From: Candidatus Binatia bacterium
Lineage (GTDB): Bacteria; Patescibacteriota; Patescibacteriia; SG8-24
Direction of reading: 5' to 3'
Assembly: GCA_035495855.1 (NCBI GenBank)
Contig: DATJFD010000002.1
Span: forward strand, 13,365-77,364
DNA length: 64,000 bases
Shown here: positions 12,706 to 57,532 of the stretch, piece after piece
How the letters are laid out: every line of letters starts with the position of its first letter
How positions within the stretch are numbered: the first letter of the stretch is position 1
Program-made: the position numbers and the translations under genes
The notes under the pieces: model-generated
What the model was told of the DNA's origin: nothing
Database searches by the model: none
The model's input: the letters and a program-made list of their open reading frames with translations, nothing else

Positions 12706-14178
12706 ATGAGCCCCGCAGACGCAGCGCGAGCGGTCGCGCCCATCCTCGACGATCCGCGCCTGGCCTTCCTCGGCAGGATGCGTGAGGCGTTCCCGTCCGC
12801 CGAGTGGTTCCTCGTGGGCGGCGCGGTGCGCGACCTGGTGCTCGGCCGCTCCGGCACGAAGGACATCGACCTCGTGGCCCGCAAGGTCGGCCTCGAGGAG
12901 CTTTCACGGCTGCTCGCCAAGGAAGGCGACGTGAACTACGTCGGCAGGAACTTCGGCGTGCTCAAGTTCCGGCCGCGGGGTACCGGAGACGTCATCGATA
13001 TCGCCTGGCCGCGCACCGAACGCGCCGGCATGACCGGCGCCTACCGCGACTTCGCCGTGCAATCCGACCCCGACCTTCCCATCGAGCGCGACCTGGCGCG
13101 TCGCGACTTCGCCATGAACGCCATGGCCTTCGACCTCGTGAAGGGCGAGCTGCTCGATCCTTATGGCGGGCTCGCCGACATCGAGGCGAAGACGGTGCGC
13201 GCGGTCGGCGATGCGCAGGTCCGTTTCGCGGAGGACCACTCGCGCATGCTCCGCGCCGTCCGGTTCGCCTGCCAGCTCGGCTTCGTCATCGAACCGGCAA
13301 CGTGGGACGCGATCGCGCGCCGCGTGCCGCATCTGCATGACCTGCGTGAGGACGGGGAGCGCGTGGTGCCGTACGAAACGATCGCGAAGGAGTTCGTGAA
13401 GGCCATGGCCGCGGACCCCGCGCGCGCCGTCGAACTGTTCCACAAATGCGGCGCGCTGTTCCGGCTCGTGCCCGAGCTCGCGTCGCTTTCATCCTGCGCG
13501 CAGACGCCGGAGCATCATGCTGAAGGCGACGTCTGGACCCACACCATGCTCGCGCTCGCGAAATTGCGCGGGCCGGAGTTCGCCGGGCTCTTCCCGGGGG
13601 AGGCCGCGGACGCCGAGACGGCGATCGCGGTGCTGCTCCATGACGTCGCCAAGCCGCAGACGTTCGAGCTGCGCGGAGGCAAGGCGACGTTCTACGGCCA
13701 TGACGAGCACGGCGCGCGGATCGCGCTGGTCGTGGCCGAGCGGCTGCGCCTGTCGAGCGCCGGCATCGATCCCGAACGGCTCGCCTGGCTCGTGCAGCAC
13801 CACCTCTTCCCGAACCTCGTCGACCTCGCCGGCGTGCGCAGGACGACGCTCGCGCGGTATTTCCTGAAGGACCGGCTCGCGGGGCGCCGCCTGCTGCATC
13901 TCGCCTGCGCGGACGCCGCGGCGTCGCTCCGGCCCGACGGGTCCGCGGACCTCGGCACCTTGCGCGCGCTGCTTGCGACCCTGCGCGAGATGGAGGACCG
14001 CGAAGAGGCGGCGCCGTCGCTGCTCACCGGCGACGACGTCATGGCGATGACCGGCATGGGCCCGGGCCCGGGCGTCGGCAAGTTGCTCGATGCGCTCAAG
14101 GAGGCGCAGCTCCGCGGCGAGGTCGCGGACATCGATCATGCGAAAGAACTGATCAGAGGACTGCACCCGACGGAATGA
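12706..14178 (+). CDS. cca: CCA-adding enzyme / poly(A) polymerase family nucleotidyltransferase with HD domain
   Basis: FLVGGAVRDLVLGR...DIDLV nucleotidyltransferase head plus LLHDVAKP...HDEHG HD motif. An alternative start exists at 12667. Confidence 0.7.
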   Translation: MSPADAARAVAPILDDPRLAFLGRMREAFPSAEWFLVGGAVRDLVLGRSGTKDIDLVARKVGLEELSRLLAKEGDVNYVGRNFGVLKFRPRGTGDVIDIAWPRTERAGMTGAYRDFAVQSDPDLPIERDLARRDFAMNAMAFDLVKGELLDPYGGLADIEAKTVRAVGDAQVRFAEDHSRMLRAVRFACQLGFVIEPATWDAIARRVPHLHDLREDGERVVPYETIAKEFVKAMAADPARAVELFHKCGALFRLVPELASLSSCAQTPEHHAEGDVWTHTMLALAKLRGPEFAGLFPGEAADAETAIAVLLHDVAKPQTFELRGGKATFYGHDEHGARIALVVAERLRLSSAGIDPERLAWLVQHHLFPNLVDLAGVRRTTLARYFLKDRLAGRRLLHLACADAAASLRPDGSADLGTLRALLATLREMEDREEAAPSLLTGDDVMAMTGMGPGPGVGKLLDALKEAQLRGEVADIDHAKELIRGLHPTE

Positions 14179-14179
14179 G

Positions 14180-14205
14180 AACCGGCCAGCACGGCCGGTT
14201 TTTGG
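14180..14205 (+). terminator. intrinsic terminator after cca
   Basis: AACCGGCC-agca-CGGCCGGTT hairpin followed by TTT. Confidence 0.7.
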
Positions 14206-14214
14206 TTTTCATGT

Positions 14215-14430
14215 AGAGCCGGCCTGCCTGGGGCATCCCGCCGGTCGCCTCGGTCGGCTTCGCCTCCCTAAACGGCGACCTTGCGGGACGCCCCGGCGCG
14301 GCCTCCGCCCTCGGCAAAAAGCATCCCGGAGACTAATGAACAACAAAGAAATCCGGCCCCAAAAATGAAGCGCCGCCGCATCTCATCGGGCCGGATTTCT
14401 CGCAGGATCTTAGAAGAGGCTTCGATGGTG
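14215..14430 (-). repeat. structured repeat family, copy A (reverse orientation)
   Basis: The reverse complement starts CACCATCGAAGCC..AGATCCTGCGAGAAATCCGGCC, then a loop, GGCCGGATTTC, and a long GC hairpin. Confidence 0.75.
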
Positions 14431-14436
14431 CGGTCT

Positions 14437-14552
14437 GTTTCTGGACCCCGGGTCAAGCCCGGGGTGACAAAAGTTAACTGTCACCCCGCACTTGATGCAG
14501 GTCCAGAAAAAAAGAAATGTCACCCTGAACTTGTTTCAGGGTCCAGAAACAA
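14437..14552. repeat. REP/BIME-like hairpin cluster 1 (3 units)
   Basis: Units follow TGTCACCC-stem-loop-stem-GGGTCCAGAAA. One unit is inverted. Confidence 0.75.
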
Positions 14553-14564
14553 TGACCACCTGTA

Positions 14565-14790
14565 CCACCGAAGCCGAGTTAAGAGATCCGTCGAGAAATC
14601 CGGCTCGCTGAGACTAGGGTACGCTCCATTTCTGGAGCCGGATTTCCATGTTGCTCCATCCATGTGCGAGCGCGCATATATCGAGTACGTAGGCCGGGCC
14701 GGTCAGGTCACGCGGCGACCATTTCAGGACCCATGGGATTATGGGTCCTGGGTCGCCGCTGGCCTGACCGGACGGCCGGCTCCTCTGCCG
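14565..14790 (+). repeat. structured repeat family, copy D
   Basis: CACCGAAGCCGAGTTAAGAGATCCGTCGAGAAATCCGGC, then a loop, GCCGGATTTCC, and a long hairpin (GGCCGGTCAGGTC...GGCCTGACCGGAC). Confidence 0.7.
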
Positions 14791-14799
14791 AGTGAGACG

Positions 14800-14826
14800 A
14801 AAAAAACCGGCCCGAAGGCCGGTTTT
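14800..14826 (-). terminator. intrinsic terminator (bidirectional shape) after the YtxH-like gene
   Basis: AAAAAAACCGGCC-cgaa-GGCCGGTTTT. Confidence 0.7.
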
Positions 14827-14838
14827 CAGATCGCGACG

Positions 14839-31085: not shown

Positions 31086-32390
<1,305 letters not shown>

Positions 32391-32402
32391 GGTTCGAAGA
32401 GA

Positions 32403-32431
32403 AAAATCCTGCCTTCGGGCAGGATTTTTTG
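32403..32431. terminator. bidirectional intrinsic terminator
   Basis: AAAAATCCTGCC-ttcg-GGCAGGATTTTTT. Confidence 0.8.
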
Positions 32432-32450
32432 TAGGAGTCCGGTCATGGAG

Positions 32451-36157: not shown

Positions 36158-36523
36158 ATGTCCGACCAGAAGGCGACTTCCGGAGACAAGAAGGCCGATG
36201 CCGCGACCAAGCCGCTCGAAAAGGAGAAGATCGACGTCAGCGTGACGCCGAAGCAGGGCGGCGACAAGAAGCAGACCCAGGACAACCGACAGTACGCTGA
36301 CAAGGTGAAGAAGAGCCTCGAGAACGACGTCAAGAAGTCCCTCGACGGCGCCAAGCAGGACGGCGCCAAGAAGCAGCTCGACGCCGCCGAGAAGACCGCG
36401 CAGGACGCCGGCAAGAAGATCGACCCCTCCAAGATCGAGAAGGTCAAGGTGAAGGTCGAAGGCGAGGCCGGCGGCGAGAAGGTCAAGCGCGAGACCGTCG
36501 TCGCCCCCAAGAAGGAGAGCTGA
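36158..36523 (+). CDS. Lys/Asp-rich low-complexity hypothetical protein
   Basis: AAGGAG lies upstream of the ATG. 121 aa and highly charged. Confidence 0.5.
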   Translation: MSDQKATSGDKKADAATKPLEKEKIDVSVTPKQGGDKKQTQDNRQYADKVKKSLENDVKKSLDGAKQDGAKKQLDAAEKTAQDAGKKIDPSKIEKVKVKVEGEAGGEKVKRETVVAPKKES

Positions 36524-36637
36524 TGCGCTTTCGTCGCTCGAAGACGCGCACCCGAGCCCCGGCGCTTGTCGGGGTTTTCATTTTGTCCGGACGGCCCGCT
36601 CGACACGGCGGGCGGCCCGCGTTATCCTTCCTTCGTT

Positions 36638-37159
36638 ATGTGGTTCAGGCGCAGACAGGACACGACGATGGCCGACGATGCCGTGCTGGCGCTCGGCCTG
36701 CTCGGCATGGCCTTCATGGGGTACCTCTCGTACCTCCACTTCAAGACGACGCCGGGCAGCTCGTTCTGCAATTTCGGCGCGCATTTCTCCTGCGAGATCG
36801 TGAACAAGAGCGTCTATGCCGAGCTGTTCGGCGTGCCGCTGGCCTTCATGGGCTTCGCGTACTTCGCGTTCGTCGCGGCGCTCGCGACCTCCGCGTATCC
36901 GTGGCGGCACCGCGCCATCCTGCTGGCCTCGGTGTTCTCCATCGTCTTCTCGCTGCGCCTGTCCTTCGTCGAGCTGTTCGTCCTCGGCGCCATCTGCGCG
37001 TTCTGCGAAGCCTCGAAGGTCGTGATGTTCGCGATCATCGGGCTGACCGCCCGCTCCGTCATCCGGGCCAGGGAACGTCTGCCGCTCGGCGGCATCGCCT
37101 GGGCGCTCTTCGCCGGCGCCGTCTTCACCGCCGCCGCCCGATACTTCCAGGCTTCCTAA
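36638..37159 (+). CDS. vitamin K epoxide reductase (VKOR) family membrane protein
   Basis: Loop Cys pair (FCNFGAHFSC) and the CAFC active-site motif in the last TM region. Confidence 0.75.
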   Translation: MWFRRRQDTTMADDAVLALGLLGMAFMGYLSYLHFKTTPGSSFCNFGAHFSCEIVNKSVYAELFGVPLAFMGFAYFAFVAALATSAYPWRHRAILLASVFSIVFSLRLSFVELFVLGAICAFCEASKVVMFAIIGLTARSVIRARERLPLGGIAWALFAGAVFTAAARYFQAS

Positions 37160-37165
37160 CTGCTT

Positions 37166-37378
37166 CATCGAAGCCGAGTTCAGAGATCCCGCGAGAAATC
37201 CGGCCCGTCCGAGACAGCGGGGCGGATCCTTTTTTTGAGGCCGGATTTCCGTGCCCTACTTCTCCGGCGGCCATGAAGAGCACCGCGGGTGGCGCGGGAA
37301 TGGGGTCCCCGCTCGCGCGTATTTGCGAAGCAAAACGCACGTGCGGGGTTATTCCCGCGACAGGACCCGCGGGGTTCA
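37166..37378 (+). repeat. structured repeat family, copy B
   Basis: CATCGAAGCCGAGTTCAGAGATCCCGCGAGAAATCCGGCC, then a loop, GGCCGGATTTCC ... ACCGCGGGTGGCGCGGGAAT ... ATTCCCGCGACAGGACCCGCGGG. Confidence 0.8.
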
Positions 37379-37408
37379 TCACCGCTTCGTCATGCTATAA
37401 TGAAAACC

Positions 37409-38122
37409 ATGAACAGCATCTTCTTCCTCGCCATCGCGGCCGGATTCCTGACCATCCTCGCGCCCTGCATCCTGCCGGTGCTGCCGTTCCTGCTCGGCAC
37501 GAGCGGCGGCCGCTCGAAGCTCCGGCCGGTGATGATCATCATCGGCTTCGTGCTGAGCTTCAGCGTGCTCGGCGCGGCCTTCGCCACGGCCGGGACCTTC
37601 CTCGGCGTCTCGAACGGCGCGATCCGCACGGTGGCGGTCGTGCTGCTCCTGCTTTTCGGCCTGGCGCTCCTCTTCGAGAGCGTCTACGACAAGGCCATGG
37701 CCCGGCTGCAGCCCGTCCTCGCGCGCTGGAGCGCGAAGGTCGCGGGCAAGGCGGCCATCAAGACCGACGCGCTCTCCGGCCTGCTCGTAGGCGTGTCGCT
37801 CGGCCTCGTCTGGACGCCCTGCGCCGGCCCCATCCTCGGCTCCATCCTCACGCTCGCGAGCCGCACCGCCGACTACGTCACGACACTGCTCCTGATGTTC
37901 GCCTACGCGCTCGGCGCGGGCGCGCCGATGCTCGCCATAGCCTACGGCGGCAACGCGCTGCAGCGCCGCCTGCTGAAGTTCGGCAAATGGCAGTCGGTCC
38001 TCAACAAGGTCTTCGGGGTCCTCGTCGTCGCCATGGCGATCCTCATCCTCACGGGCTACGACCTCATCCTGCAGGCCTGGCTGATCCAGTTCTACCCTTC
38101 ATCCTTCACCGGCAAGCTATGA
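37409..38122 (+). CDS. ccdA: cytochrome c biogenesis / thiol-disulfide electron transporter CcdA (DsbD core)
   Basis: ILAPCILPVLPF and WTPCAGPILG motifs. A TGCTATAAT box ends 7 nt before ATG 37409. An alternative ATG at 37400 lies inside the -10 box. Confidence 0.85.
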   Translation: MNSIFFLAIAAGFLTILAPCILPVLPFLLGTSGGRSKLRPVMIIIGFVLSFSVLGAAFATAGTFLGVSNGAIRTVAVVLLLLFGLALLFESVYDKAMARLQPVLARWSAKVAGKAAIKTDALSGLLVGVSLGLVWTPCAGPILGSILTLASRTADYVTTLLLMFAYALGAGAPMLAIAYGGNALQRRLLKFGKWQSVLNKVFGVLVVAMAILILTGYDLILQAWLIQFYPSSFTGKL

Positions 38123-39288
38123 GCGCGGAACCCGGCATCAAAAGGAACTTCCTCATCGGCGCCGCCGCGGCCGCCGTGCTCGTCATCATGGCGGCGGTCG
38201 TGAACCTGCGCCTCCAGGGCCTGCAGATGCCGCTGGGGGAGCTCGCGAACATGAACGCGCCCGCCTTCGGCACGCCCGACCAGCTCACGAAGCGCGTGAT
38301 GGACGCGGGAGGCGCGGAGGCCAAGGTGCTGCCCGTGCTCGCGCAGGCGATGCCCGAGTTCAAGGGCATCAAGGCCTGGATCAACTCCGGCCCGCTCACG
38401 CCCGCGGACCTCAAGGGCAAGGTCGTCCTCGTCGATTTCTGGACCTACTCCTGCATCAACTGCATCCGTTCGCTGCCGTACGTCACGTCGTGGCACGAGA
38501 AGTACAAGGACAAAGGCTTCACGGTCATCGGCGTGCACACGCCGGAGTTCGCTTTCGAGAAGATAGAGAGCAACGTGCGCGACGCCGTCGCCCGCAACAA
38601 GATCACGTACCCCGTGGCGATGGACAACGACTACGGCACCTGGAACGCCTACGGGAATCAGTATTGGCCGGCGCATTATCTCTTCGACGTTGACGGCCGG
38701 CTGCGGCACGTCCATTTCGGCGAAGGCGAATACGACGAGACCGAGCGCGACATCCAGCTGCTGCTCGAAGAGGCCGGCAAGAAGGTCGGCGGCGGCATGA
38801 CCGAAGTGCCGAGCACCACCGACTTCTCGCGGATCGGGACGCCGGAGACGTACGTCGGCTATGGCCGCGGGGACCTGTTCGGCAGCCCCGAGGCGCTGAA
38901 AAAGGACGAGCCGCAGAACTACGTCGCGCCGCCGGACCCGCCGGAAGGGAGCTTCTATCTCTTCGGGACCTGGCGGGTCGAGGAGGAACGCGCCGTGTTC
39001 GTCGGCGACACGGGCGGGATCGCGTATCGCTACCAGGCGTCGAACGCCAACCTCGTGATGGGCGCGCCGGGCGGCAAGGTGCGCGCCGAAGTGACCCTCG
39101 ACGGCGCGCCGGTTCCTGCCGGGCTGCGCGGCGCGGACGTCTTCGAGGTCGATGGCAGGACGTACGTCGACGTCTCGGGCCAGCGCCTCTACAGCCTCAT
39201 CGACGCGCAGGGCGACTACGACAGCCGCACGCTGCGCATCAAGTTCCTCGCGCCCCGCGTCGAGGCCTACGCCTTCACGTTCGGCTAG
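38119..39288 (+). CDS. membrane-anchored thioredoxin-like (TlpA/ResA fold) protein with DipZ-like C-terminal domain
   Basis: Its ATGA overlaps the ccdA stop. Contains VLVDFWTYSCINCIRSLP (CxxC). Confidence 0.8.
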   Translation: MSAEPGIKRNFLIGAAAAAVLVIMAAVVNLRLQGLQMPLGELANMNAPAFGTPDQLTKRVMDAGGAEAKVLPVLAQAMPEFKGIKAWINSGPLTPADLKGKVVLVDFWTYSCINCIRSLPYVTSWHEKYKDKGFTVIGVHTPEFAFEKIESNVRDAVARNKITYPVAMDNDYGTWNAYGNQYWPAHYLFDVDGRLRHVHFGEGEYDETERDIQLLLEEAGKKVGGGMTEVPSTTDFSRIGTPETYVGYGRGDLFGSPEALKKDEPQNYVAPPDPPEGSFYLFGTWRVEEERAVFVGDTGGIAYRYQASNANLVMGAPGGKVRAEVTLDGAPVPAGLRGADVFEVDGRTYVDVSGQRLYSLIDAQGDYDSRTLRIKFLAPRVEAYAFTFG

Positions 39289-40519: not shown

Positions 40520-40607
40520 CGGCGCCTCCTTCGTCGTCGAAAGAAAAAGGACGAGCCTTGAACTTACCGCGGCCGCGCAGCGAGGTCAAAAAGATCAAAG
40601 CATGCAC

Positions 40608-40821
40608 CATCGAAGCCGAGATCAGAGATCCTGCGAGAAATCCGGCCCATCCGTGTCCAGCCGAAGCAGCGTTCTCGAGGCCGGATTTCCATCGTTCATA
40701 GAATGCCCGGCGTCGGTCAGAGAACCGCGGGTGGCGGGGGCAACGGGGACCCCGGCAGCGCGCAGGGCCGGGCCCGAGCACTGACGGGGTGGTTGCCCCC
40801 GACAGGACCCGCGGGCCTCAT
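40608..40821 (+). repeat. structured repeat family, copy C
   Basis: CATCGAAGCCGAGATCAGAGATCCTGCGAGAAATCCGGCC, then a loop, GGCCGGATTTCC ... ACCGCGGGTGGCGGGGGCAAC ... GTTGCCCCCGACAGGACCCGCGGG. Confidence 0.8.
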
Positions 40822-40862
40822 GCATTGAAAAACCGCCCGGTAAAGGGCGGTTTTCCCGATCC

Positions 40863-46350: not shown

Positions 46351-46425
46351 TGGTCGGGGCGACAGGGATTGAACCTGCGGCCTCTCGGTCCCGAACCGAG
46401 CGCACTACCACTGTGCTACGCCCCG
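46351..46425 (-). tRNA. tRNA-Pro (anticodon CGG), CCA encoded
   Basis: Manual cloverleaf: acceptor CGGGGCG/CGCCCCG, anticodon loop TTCGGGA, T-loop TTCAATC. 75 nt. Confidence 0.85.
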
Positions 46426-49375: not shown

Positions 49376-49520
49376 TTTTCTAGACCCTGAAACAAGTTCA
49401 GGGTGACATTTTTTCTGGACCCCGCATCACGTGCGGGGTGACATTCTTTTGTCATGCTGGACTTGTTTCAGCATCCAGAAAAAAATGTCACCCCGGCCCG
49501 CGAGCCGGGGTCCATAAAAA
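49376..49520. repeat. REP/BIME-like hairpin cluster 2 (4 units: 2 inverted, 2 direct)
   Basis: Units have TGTCACCC/TGTCATGC ... GGGTCCAGAAAAA flanks with three stem types. Confidence 0.75.
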
Positions 49521-57454: not shown

Positions 57455-57532
57455 TGGTAGTCCCAAGGGGATTCGAACCCCTGTTTTCTCCGTGAGAGGG
57501 AGACGTCCTGGACCGGGCTAGACGATGGGACC
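57455..57532 (-). tRNA. tRNA-Glu (anticodon CTC), CCA encoded
   Basis: Manual cloverleaf: GGTCCCA acceptor, anticodon loop CTCTCAC, T-loop TTCGAAT. 78 nt. Confidence 0.85.

What the first reader, a model, noticed from the sequence alone, without database searches (positions are those of the whole stretch)
37166..37378. Four-copy ~215-nt structured repeat with a conserved 5' module and compensatory changes in the 3' hairpin
Copies lie at 14215-14430 (minus strand), 14565-14790, 37166-37378 and 40608-40821.
All four share CA(C/T)CGAAGCC...AGAGATCCNGCGAGAAATCCGGCC, a variable ~30-nt loop, and GGCCGGATTTC. That gives an 11-bp stem conserved in sequence.
Copies B and C continue with ACCGCGGGTGG and a long hairpin whose inner stem differs but stays paired: GCGGGAAT/ATTCCCGC in B versus GGGGGCAAC/GTTGCCCCC in C. 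It closes with GACAGGACCCGCGGG.
Copies A and D replace this part with different long GC hairpins.
The translations differ in frame between copies, so the element is not coding. Structure-preserving substitutions suggest selection on an RNA or single-stranded DNA fold. I could not match it to a riboswitch, T-box, SRP, tmRNA or RNase P pattern.
Basis: seen in the sequence. Interest (0 to 1): 0.75.

Follow-up and report, generated by a model that had tools for sequence, protein, structure and literature searches.

The report
Modular hairpin repeat in a Patescibacterium
The four copies are real members of a previously undescribed, probably mobile family of about 220-base non-coding repeats, each made of two long hairpins, that sits between housekeeping genes of a high-GC Patescibacteria-like bacterium; whether it also works as an RNA is not shown.

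Summary
Four ~220-nt copies share a 5' module (H): ~32 conserved bases plus an 11-bp hairpin with a variable tip. Each adds a long 3' hairpin, type T1 in B and C or type T2 in A and D.

About 19 more copies turned up in one MAG and in soil and groundwater metagenomes. Nothing matched in Rfam, phages, plasmids or viral contigs. Both 3' hairpins show compensatory changes: 11 and 9 pairs changed on both sides, and 0 of 500 shuffles reached that.

The copies behave like inserted DNA. B and the whole A-D block are missing from the same gene gaps in eight contigs from related organisms (71-90% protein identity). C sits where two relatives carry a gene. The modules recombine into compact, solo, decayed and head-to-head forms. 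Copies lie next to terminators and short REP-like palindromes. I found no promoter, no fixed orientation to neighbours, no terminal inverted repeats, no consistent target duplication and no transposase in the window.

Best reading (0.5): a lineage-specific mosaic repeat in the style of REP/BIME/REPIN, kept foldable as a single strand. An independent small-RNA family is the main rival (0.25). Two things keep it alive: T2 folds better on one strand in 8 of 8 copies, and the H core is conserved at what looks like a shared locus.

The parts
14216..14308 (-). Copy A, 3' module: T2a long hairpin ending ...CAGGCAGGCCGGCT
   Evidence: T2 covariance model R2 scores it 89.3 bits. Fold.
14334..14435 (-). 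Copy A, 5' module H: conserved leader plus 11-bp hairpin (arms 14399-14389 and 14358-14348)
   Evidence: Model R1 scores it 90.6 bits. Sequence.
14438..14549 (.). Three REP-like 32-nt palindromes, TGTCA[stem]CTTGA[stem]CCAGAAA, at 14438-14469 (-), 14479-14509 (+) and 14518-14549 (+). They fill the gap between the facing 5' ends of A and D.
   Evidence: Regex scan. The same units precede H in L043, L055, L069, L114 and L116.
14558..14660 (+). Copy D, H module (arms 14595-14605 and 14636-14646; the last pair is U-A)
   Evidence: R1 scores it 93.3 bits.
14687..14782 (+). Copy D, T2b long hairpin with the tip GGACCCATGGGATTATGGGTCC
   Evidence: R2 scores it 69.5 bits. It has the same subtype as L091 586-679.
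14176..14204 (+). Terminator hairpin ACCGGCC-AGCAC-GGCCGGT after the CCA-enzyme gene; left flank of the A-D block
   Evidence: Terminator scan. It is one of only two ACCGGCC...GGCCGGT hairpins in the window.
14800..14827 (.). Bidirectional terminator AAAAAAACCGGCC-CGAA-GGCCGGTTTT; right flank of the A-D block
   Evidence: Relatives have a single terminator at this site.
37158..37263 (+). Copy B, H module (arms 37195-37205 and 37239-37249)
   Evidence: R1 scores it 93.6 bits.
37282..37373 (+). Copy B, T1 long hairpin (CCGCGGGT GG ... GACAGG ACCCGCGG)
   Evidence: T1 model R3 scores it 80.1 bits. Pair counts.
40600..40703 (+). Copy C, H module (arms 40637-40647 and 40679-40689)
   Evidence: R1 scores it 99.4 bits.
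40724..40815 (+). Copy C, T1 long hairpin
   Evidence: R3 scores it 88.7 bits. It is nearly identical to the T1 hairpins of L043 and L083.
40828..40855 (.). Bidirectional terminator AAAAACCGCCC-GGTAAA-GGGCGGTTTT between C and the 297-aa gene
   Evidence: Sequence; fold.

Best explanation
The element is a lineage-specific, non-coding mosaic repeat of a high-GC Patescibacteria/Parcubacteria-like bacterium.

A unit has two parts. H is a terminator-like hairpin with a fixed 11-bp base, a conserved 5' leader (...AGATCCnnCGA) and a free tip. T is a long imperfect hairpin of one of three kinds: T1, T2a or T2b.

Shown:
- Units and head-to-head pairs of units have been inserted into intergenic gaps next to terminators and REP-like palindromes.
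- The modules are shuffled, shortened and lost.
- Pairing in the stems is kept through compensated changes.

Inferred:
- The family spreads as DNA through a trans-acting enzyme or a recombination process that reads hairpins in single-stranded DNA, as REP/REPIN elements do with their RAYT transposase. That need keeps the stems paired.
- Once in place a copy is transcribed only passively, where it can act as a hairpin punctuation mark (terminator, insulator or RNA-end stabiliser).
For: Insertion:
- The VKOR-CcdA gap is 250 nt with B. It is 63-96 nt in five contigs from related organisms at 79-90% CcdA identity, and none of them has a copy.
- The CCA-enzyme/108-aa gene gap is about 660 nt with A-REP-D. 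In L210 and L211 (71-77% identity) it is 45 nt with one terminator. L209 (81%) likewise shows a single terminator there.
- C sits where L146 and L154 have an FMN-reductase gene.

Modularity:
- Compact H occurs in L002 and L091.
- Solo T2 occurs in L011 and L093.
- A decayed T1 occurs in L069 and a partial T1 end in L043.

Pairs as units:
- Head-to-head pairs occur in the window, L043, L091 and L002.
- Window A-D aligns end to end with the L091 pair at 74% identity, although tblastx finds no similarity in the flanking sequence.

Context:
- REP-like palindromes or terminators lie just 5' of most copies.
- The only two ACCGGCC hairpins of the window flank the A-D block.
- There are no sigma-70-like promoters and no fixed orientation to neighbouring genes.

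Stem changes:
- In T1 the compensated changes are mostly C-G to G-C swaps with almost no G.U intermediates.
- T1 folds equally well on both strands.

Density: 4 copies in 64 kb of plain housekeeping genes.
Against: - No transposase, recombinase or reverse transcriptase lies in the window or next to copies elsewhere.
- There are no terminal inverted repeats and no consistent target duplication.
- Conserved asymmetric internal loops (GG opposite GACAGG in T1; the bulges in T2), a recurrent G.U pair and 8 of 8 sense-strand preference in T2 ask for more than simple palindrome upkeep.
- At the gatB locus of L011 and L093 the layout is shared and the H core is about 90-100% identical while its tip cannot be aligned. 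That looks like long-term constraint rather than recent selfish spread.
- T1 of C, L043 and L083 is nearly identical while their H tips have diverged.
Confidence: 0.5

Rival explanations
1. A family of independently transcribed, structured small RNAs of about 220-260 nt. They would share a 5' domain (H) and carry alternative 3' domains (T1, T2), ending at the nearby intrinsic terminators. They would act in trans, or as the RNA part of a protein complex.
For: - Compensated changes in both T hairpins, with 0 of 500 shuffles reaching them, and in H pairs 7 and 11.
- Conserved unpaired motifs and asymmetric loops.
- A recurrent G.U pair, and T2 more stable on the sense strand in 8 of 8 copies.
- Many copies are followed by a hairpin plus T-run on their own strand.
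- The H core is conserved at the shared gatB locus while its tip is free.
- L093 has a fair TGGTCA-17-TATAAG box just upstream (my reading).
Against: - No conserved promoter travels with the repeat, and there are no sigma-70-like sites at the four window copies.
- In L091 the two facing 5' ends are only about 12 nt apart.
- Copies are absent from close relatives.
- Decayed and solo modules exist.
- T1 shows no strand preference.
- The variable parts match nothing else in the window.
- Four copies in 64 kb of a bacterium from a lineage I expect to have a small genome would be an unusually dense RNA family (genome size from general knowledge, not measured here).
Confidence: 0.25
2. Non-autonomous derivative or end fragments of a hairpin-dependent mobile element, with H and T as the two ends. 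Candidates are an IS200/IS605-type PATE, an IS110-type element, or an attC-like single-strand recombination site for a tyrosine recombinase.
For: - No TIR or TSD, as in IS200/IS605.
- Conserved hairpins near both borders, with short conserved tails (CATAG after T1).
- Strand-specific folding of T2.
- Insertion at hairpins, with a duplicated terminator around A-D.
- Imperfect palindromes with conserved extra-helical bases resemble attC sites (resemblance from general knowledge, not tested).
Against: - The H and T stems are unlike each other, whereas the two end hairpins of an IS200/IS605 element bind one enzyme and are alike.
- No conserved target tetranucleotide was found.
- No tnpA, tnpB, IS110 or integrase gene is present in the window or beside other copies.
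- No Rfam hit to IS605-orfB or HEARO-type RNAs.
- The copies are not in cassette arrays.
Confidence: 0.12
3. A cis-acting RNA element selected in place, such as a leader, attenuator or 3'-end stabiliser for particular genes.
For: - B lies 22 nt before the ccdA start.
- Several copies are co-oriented with and downstream of a gene.
- H looks like a weak bidirectional terminator.
Against: - All orientations relative to neighbours occur; C is antisense to both of its neighbours.
- The neighbouring genes are unrelated.
- Relatives do without it at the same sites.
Confidence: 0.08

Closest known systems
REP / BIME / REPIN elements (RAYT-mobilised palindromic repeats of proteobacteria)
   Same: - Intergenic and multi-copy.
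- Built from hairpin units with a conserved base and a free tip.
- Units occur in opposite orientation and in mosaics with other motifs.
- They sit by terminators between genes.
- Compensated changes keep the stems paired.
- They are present or absent between close relatives.
   Different: - The H-T unit is about 220 nt with two unlike hairpins and conserved asymmetric loops, much larger than a 20-40-nt REP or a ~100-nt REPIN.
- It has no GTAG-type 5' tetranucleotide.
- No RAYT gene has been seen.
- The host is a Patescibacteria-like organism.
RIME, ERIC and bcr1-type structured intergenic repeats (Rhizobium, enterobacteria, Bacillus cereus group); comparison from general knowledge
   Same: 100-200-nt intergenic repeats that fold into long imperfect hairpins. 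Some are reported to have compensated changes and possible RNA-level roles when co-transcribed.
   Different: No sequence similarity. ERIC- and MITE-type members have terminal inverted repeats and often a TA duplication, and neither was found here.
Integron attC sites
   Same: Imperfect palindromes with a conserved base, a variable centre and conserved unpaired bases, read as a folded single strand in one orientation.
   Different: No R''/R' core (RYYYAAC/GTTRRRY), no cassette array, no integrase nearby, and an extra H module.
Retron msr-msd non-coding RNA
   Same: Similar length and layout: a 5' stem-loop followed by a long variable hairpin. In a few copies the 5' end can pair with sequence after the 3' hairpin (L011, L043).
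   Different: No reverse transcriptase gene follows any copy. The end-to-end pairing is absent in most copies. It is multi-copy, and Rfam has no match.

Membership tests
Any Rfam 15 RNA family | Covariance-model score at or above the gathering threshold | tested here: not met
   Only two tRNAs pass in the whole window. Relaxed scans of the copies (E up to 10) give only chance microRNA-type hits caused by the long inverted repeat.
MITE | Terminal inverted repeats | tested here: not met
   The 5' and 3' ends pair significantly in only about 4 of the 13 copies scored. For the A-D block the outer ends share only GAGCCGGCC.
MITE | Target-site duplication of fixed length | tested here: not met
   Flank comparison gives 7-11-nt repeats of varying length at three copies, near the number expected by chance. 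Only the A-D block is flanked by two like hairpins.
MITE | Short, non-coding, multi-copy, present or absent between relatives | tested here: met
   About 23 copies are known. Empty sites are seen in eight contigs from related organisms.
REP/BIME/REPIN | Intergenic palindromic units, in clusters and in opposite orientations | tested here: met
   Head-to-head pairs in the window, L043, L091 and L002. REP-like 32-nt units in alternating orientation at 14438-14549 and 49377-49518.
REP/BIME/REPIN | A RAYT (Y1 HUH transposase) gene in the same genome | not testable with these tools
   Only 64 kb of the genome is in hand and it has none. The whole genome cannot be scanned.
REP/BIME/REPIN | Unit size of 20-40 nt (REP) or about 100 nt (REPIN), with a conserved 5' tetranucleotide | tested here: not met
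   The H-T unit is about 220 nt and has no GTAG-like tetranucleotide. The conserved leader is AGATCCnnCGA.
IS200/IS605-derived PATE | Similar subterminal hairpins at both ends, and a tnpA or tnpB partner | tested here: not met
   The H stem (GAAATCCGGCC) is unlike the T bases (CCGCGGGT; GGCC..GCC). No tnpA or tnpB was found.
Retron ncRNA | A reverse transcriptase gene directly downstream | tested here: not met
   Downstream genes are ccdA, a DUF5715 gene and others, and no RT is present.
Trans-acting sRNA gene | Own promoter conserved with the gene | tested here: not met
   No sigma-70-like site at any window copy. Upstream flanks are unrelated. Promoters of this lineage are not characterised, so the test is weak.
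Trans-acting sRNA gene | A discrete transcript | not testable with these tools
   No expression data are available.
Riboswitch / leader | Constant position and orientation upstream of a gene class | tested here: not met
   All orientations occur and the neighbours are unrelated.
Integron attC | R''/R' core sites and a cassette array with an integrase | tested here: not met
   No RYYYAAC/GTTRRRY at the hairpin bases. The copies are dispersed and no integrase is present.

The most novel reading that the evidence does not exclude
H-T units are a new class of multi-copy structured RNAs of Patescibacteria, a group with no described sRNA families that I know of. One form of this: they are the RNA part of a mobile or RNA-guided system, with a constant protein-binding base in each hairpin and free tips. 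Their spread to new intergenic sites would then be a property of that RNA-protein system.
Probability: 0.2. Interest if true: 0.8.

Novelty: new variant of a known kind. Interest (0 to 1): 0.5.

Why it matters
- Repeat families and non-coding RNAs of Patescibacteria are, as far as I know, largely undescribed. This one has clear structure, modular build and good comparative support.
- If it is a mobile hairpin repeat, then REP/REPIN-like genome parasites or punctuation elements exist well outside the proteobacteria, in a lineage generally regarded as having a small genome. It would also point to an unknown mobilising enzyme.
- If it is an RNA, it would be an unusually abundant new RNA class.
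- Either way, the three covariance models built here give a handle for annotating the family in metagenomes.

Tried and rejected
- **Rfam.** Gathering and relaxed thresholds gave nothing beyond two tRNAs and chance hits from the long inverted repeat.
- **Coding.** Frames differ between copies, and no ORF is conserved on either strand (plus my reading of translations).
- **Whole-element closing helix or TIR.** Significant only in L011, L043 and copy A.
- **Target duplications.** Near chance level.
- **Variable tips and linkers as guides.** No match elsewhere in the window beyond chance 11-12-mers.
- **Phage or plasmid origin.** The viral hairpin hits are unrelated repeats. One T1-pattern hit is coding sequence. 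53 leader-pattern hits are chance. blastn against plasmids and phages found nothing.
- **Genome-collection hits outside one MAG.** The matches in Bifidobacterium, Acidisphaera and others lie in an unrelated sequence context, apparently coding, and have no hairpin.
- **Metagenome hits.** Most of the 120 loci carry only the same 10-nt palindrome in unrelated repeats.
- **Strand choice from whole-element folding energy.** No consistent difference. Only the T2 module taken alone is asymmetric.
- **Sigma-70 promoter scan.** Empty.
- **Hammerhead, SRP, glycine and guanidine riboswitch look-alikes.** These were recalled from memory and have no Rfam support.
- **Literature.** Searches for the sequence strings and for Patescibacteria repeats found nothing relevant.

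Full report
**What is there.**
Aligned, they share a 5' module that I call H. It is a leader, (G)CACCATCGAAGCC..AGATCCnnCGA, followed by an 11-bp hairpin, GAAATCCGGCC/GGCCGGATTTC, whose tip of 30-45 nt varies.

After a 35-45-nt linker comes a long hairpin.
- In B and C this is type T1. It has an outer stem CCGCGGGT/ACCCGCGG and conserved unpaired GG opposite GACAGG. Two inner stems are separated by GGGGA and UG, and the tip carries GCAG...CGAG(C/G)AC.
- In A and D it is type T2. It runs GGAGGCCGCGCCGGGG...GGCGACCGTTT[tip]GGTCGCC...CCCCAGGCAGGCCGGCT, with two tip forms, T2a in A and T2b in D.

All four copies fold better than shuffled sequence, with z between -2.9 and -6.8. A covariance model of H scores them at 90.6-99.4 bits and finds no further copy in the window. 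Models of T2 and T1 find none either.

**Known families.**
- Rfam gives only two tRNAs at gathering score. Relaxed scans of the copies give only chance hits.
- blastn against plasmids and phages finds nothing.
- Viral-contig scans find no true copy.

**Host.**
The window is 66% G+C and made of ordinary chromosomal genes. These include the CCA enzyme, a threonine pathway, class II ribonucleotide reductase, VKOR-CcdA-thioredoxin, HMG-CoA reductase, MgsA, a PBP and a Mur ligase. There is no transposase, integrase or reverse transcriptase.

The closest CcdA and CCA-enzyme homologues come from MAGs labelled Patescibacteria, Parcubacteria or Uhrbacteria. Gene order matches GCA_964491475.1 and GCA_023246195.1.

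**More copies.**
- One scan of 185,579 species genomes found real copies in a single MAG (JAVHQX01, 'Patescibacteria group bacterium', 65% G+C). The other 16 hit loci lie in an unrelated sequence context, apparently coding, and lack the hairpin.
Filtering for the leader left copies in Ga0310810 (nine contigs), a Hainich groundwater contig and Ga0079216.
- With the model searches the count is about 23 copies.

**Structure evidence.**
- On eight full T1-type elements, 96% of cells pair. Eleven pairs change on both sides. No shuffle out of 500 reaches the observed values, and sliding the partner columns collapses the pairing.
- On eight T2 hairpins, 90% of cells pair, nine pairs change on both sides, and again 0 of 500 shuffles reach that.
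- Between window A and L091, three adjacent pairs of one stem are flipped: GGTCGCC/GGCGACC against GGCGACC/GGTCGCC.
- The H stem looked invariant partly because my search patterns required it. Two compact copies (L002, L091) have GAAATCGGGCC-GCG-GG(C/T)CCGATTTC, with pair 7 switched from C-G to G-C. Pair 11 is C-G, U-A, U.G or C.A in different copies.

**Which strand, and RNA or DNA?**
- Whole-element energies show no strand bias.
- Taken alone, T2 is 3-14 kcal/mol more stable on the sense strand in 8 of 8 copies. A G.U pair recurs at one position in four copies, and further wobbles occur in D and L091b.
- T1 is not asymmetric, and if anything is slightly better on the antisense strand.
- In T1 the compensated changes are mostly C-G to G-C, with almost no G.U intermediates.

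This shows selection, or some correction process, on a single-stranded fold. It does not say whether that strand is RNA or DNA.

**Insertion and modularity.**
- *Copy B.* The VKOR-CcdA gap is 250 nt with B. It is 63-96 nt in five contigs from related organisms at 79-90% CcdA identity. About 20 kb around the gene in each of two of them holds no copy.
- *The A-D block.* The gap between the CCA-enzyme gene and a convergent 108-aa gene is about 660 nt in the window. In L210 and L211 (71-77% identity) it is 45 nt with one terminator, and L209 (81%) likewise shows a single terminator there. The window's only two ACCGGCC...GGCCGGT hairpins flank the inserted block.
- *Copy C.* It lies where L146 and L154 carry an FMN-reductase gene.
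- *Variant forms.* These include compact H, solo T2 (L011, L093), a T1 broken by unrelated sequence (L069) and a spare T1 end (L043).
- *Pairs.* Head-to-head pairs recur in the window (A-D), L043, L091 and L002. Window A-D and the L091 pair align along their whole length at 74% identity, although tblastx finds no similarity in the flanking sequence. The pair is therefore itself a unit.
- *Neighbourhood.* Most copies start just after a terminator, or after a REP-like 32-nt palindrome (TGTCA[stem]CTTGA[stem]CCAGAAA). That palindrome family also occurs on its own at 49377-49518.

**Against a plain selfish repeat.**
- Downstream of gatB, L011 and L093 share one layout: stop codon, antisense solo T2, terminator, then H. 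The gatB 3' end is about 80% identical between them and the H core about 90-100%, while the H tip cannot be aligned.
- The T1 hairpins of C, L043 and L083 are nearly identical while their H tips differ.
- Conserved asymmetric loops also suggest a specific partner.

**Against an RNA gene.**
- No promoter-like site lies at any window copy.
- Upstream flanks are unrelated.
- In L091 the two facing 5' ends are about 12 nt apart.
- Orientation to neighbours is arbitrary, and the neighbours are unrelated housekeeping genes.
- The variable parts match nothing else in the window.

**Verdict.**
The best-supported reading is a new, lineage-specific mosaic of hairpin modules in the manner of REP/BIME/REPIN. 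It was inserted into intergenic gaps and is kept foldable as a single strand (confidence 0.5). An independent structured RNA family remains a serious rival (0.25). A derivative of a hairpin-dependent mobile element (0.12) and a locally selected cis element (0.08) are less likely.

The family fails the tests for MITE (TIR, TSD), IS200/IS605 PATE, retron, attC and every Rfam family. It fits REP/BIME only in behaviour, not in size or sequence. Transcript mapping and a whole-genome census would decide between the readings.

Noticed in passing
window 14438-14549 and 49377-49518; also L027 6581-6651, L043 1108-1215, L069 1129-1160, L114 7238-7269, L116 3-34: A second repeat family: 32-nt REP-like palindromes, TGTCA[7-9-bp covarying stem]C(T/G)TG(A/T)[stem]CCAGAAA, in clusters of 3-4 with alternating orientation. 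The cluster at 49.4 kb has no H-T element. It widens the HMG-CoA reductase gap to about 254 nt, against 116 nt in L146.
   Followed up: partly
L146 9940-9990, L149 9945-9990, L151 4655-4690, L152 2735-2770, L154 275-315 (upstream of ccdA in relatives): Five related contigs share a leader before ccdA: an extended -10 box (TGnTATAnT) followed by the hairpin CUACG-AAA-CGUAG and a T-run. The window keeps only CATGCTATAAT and lacks the hairpin and T-run. So B's arrival went together with loss of this possible attenuator.
   Followed up: no
window 14176-14204 and 14800-14827: The only two hairpins in the window with the stem ACCGGCC/GGCCGGT flank the A-REP-D block, where relatives have a single terminator. 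They may be a ~25-nt duplication of the target terminator, or end modules of the inserted block. The same stem sits next to copies in L027, L043, L069 and L093.
   Followed up: partly
window 40520-40862 compared with L146 12591-13314 and L154 3778-4050: An FMN-reductase gene lies between the HAD gene and the 300-aa gene in two relatives. It is missing in the window, where copy C sits.
   Followed up: partly
window 32389-32436: An ordinary bidirectional terminator, AAAAATCCTGCC-TTCG-GGCAGGATTTTTT, resembles the H stem with its A3/T3 flanks (R1 18.5 bits). H may derive from a terminator of this kind.
   Followed up: no
L020, L035, L037, L038, L040, L048, L050, L062 and others (Ga0056131/0056132/0056123, Ga0209681, Ga0209788 contigs): An unrelated, AT-rich, highly repeated element, TAGGGCTGTACCGGATTTGCTTTT(A/G)(A/G)GAAATCCGGCC...GCCGGATTTCACCATATAATTAGT, happens to share the 10-nt palindrome arms. 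It made up much of the metagenome scan and looks like a MITE of some other organism.
   Followed up: no
window 36523-39288 (+): A 921-aa ORF runs across copy B in a third frame. It is a high-GC artefact: by GC3 and Pfam the real genes are VKOR (ends 37159), CcdA (37409-38122) and a thioredoxin-like gene (to 39288).
   Followed up: yes
whole window: NCBI files the identical CCA enzyme (P0121, 101-kb contig) under 'Candidatus Binatia', while all close homologues are Patescibacteria or Parcubacteria. That looks like a binning or label conflict. The window also carries a full asd-hom-thrB-thrC set, class II RNR and HMG-CoA reductase, which as far as I know is more biosynthesis than is typical for this group.
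   Followed up: no
window 46351-46425 and 57455-57532 (-): tRNA-Pro(CGG) and tRNA-Glu(CTC) are the only Rfam or ARAGORN hits in the window.
   Followed up: yes
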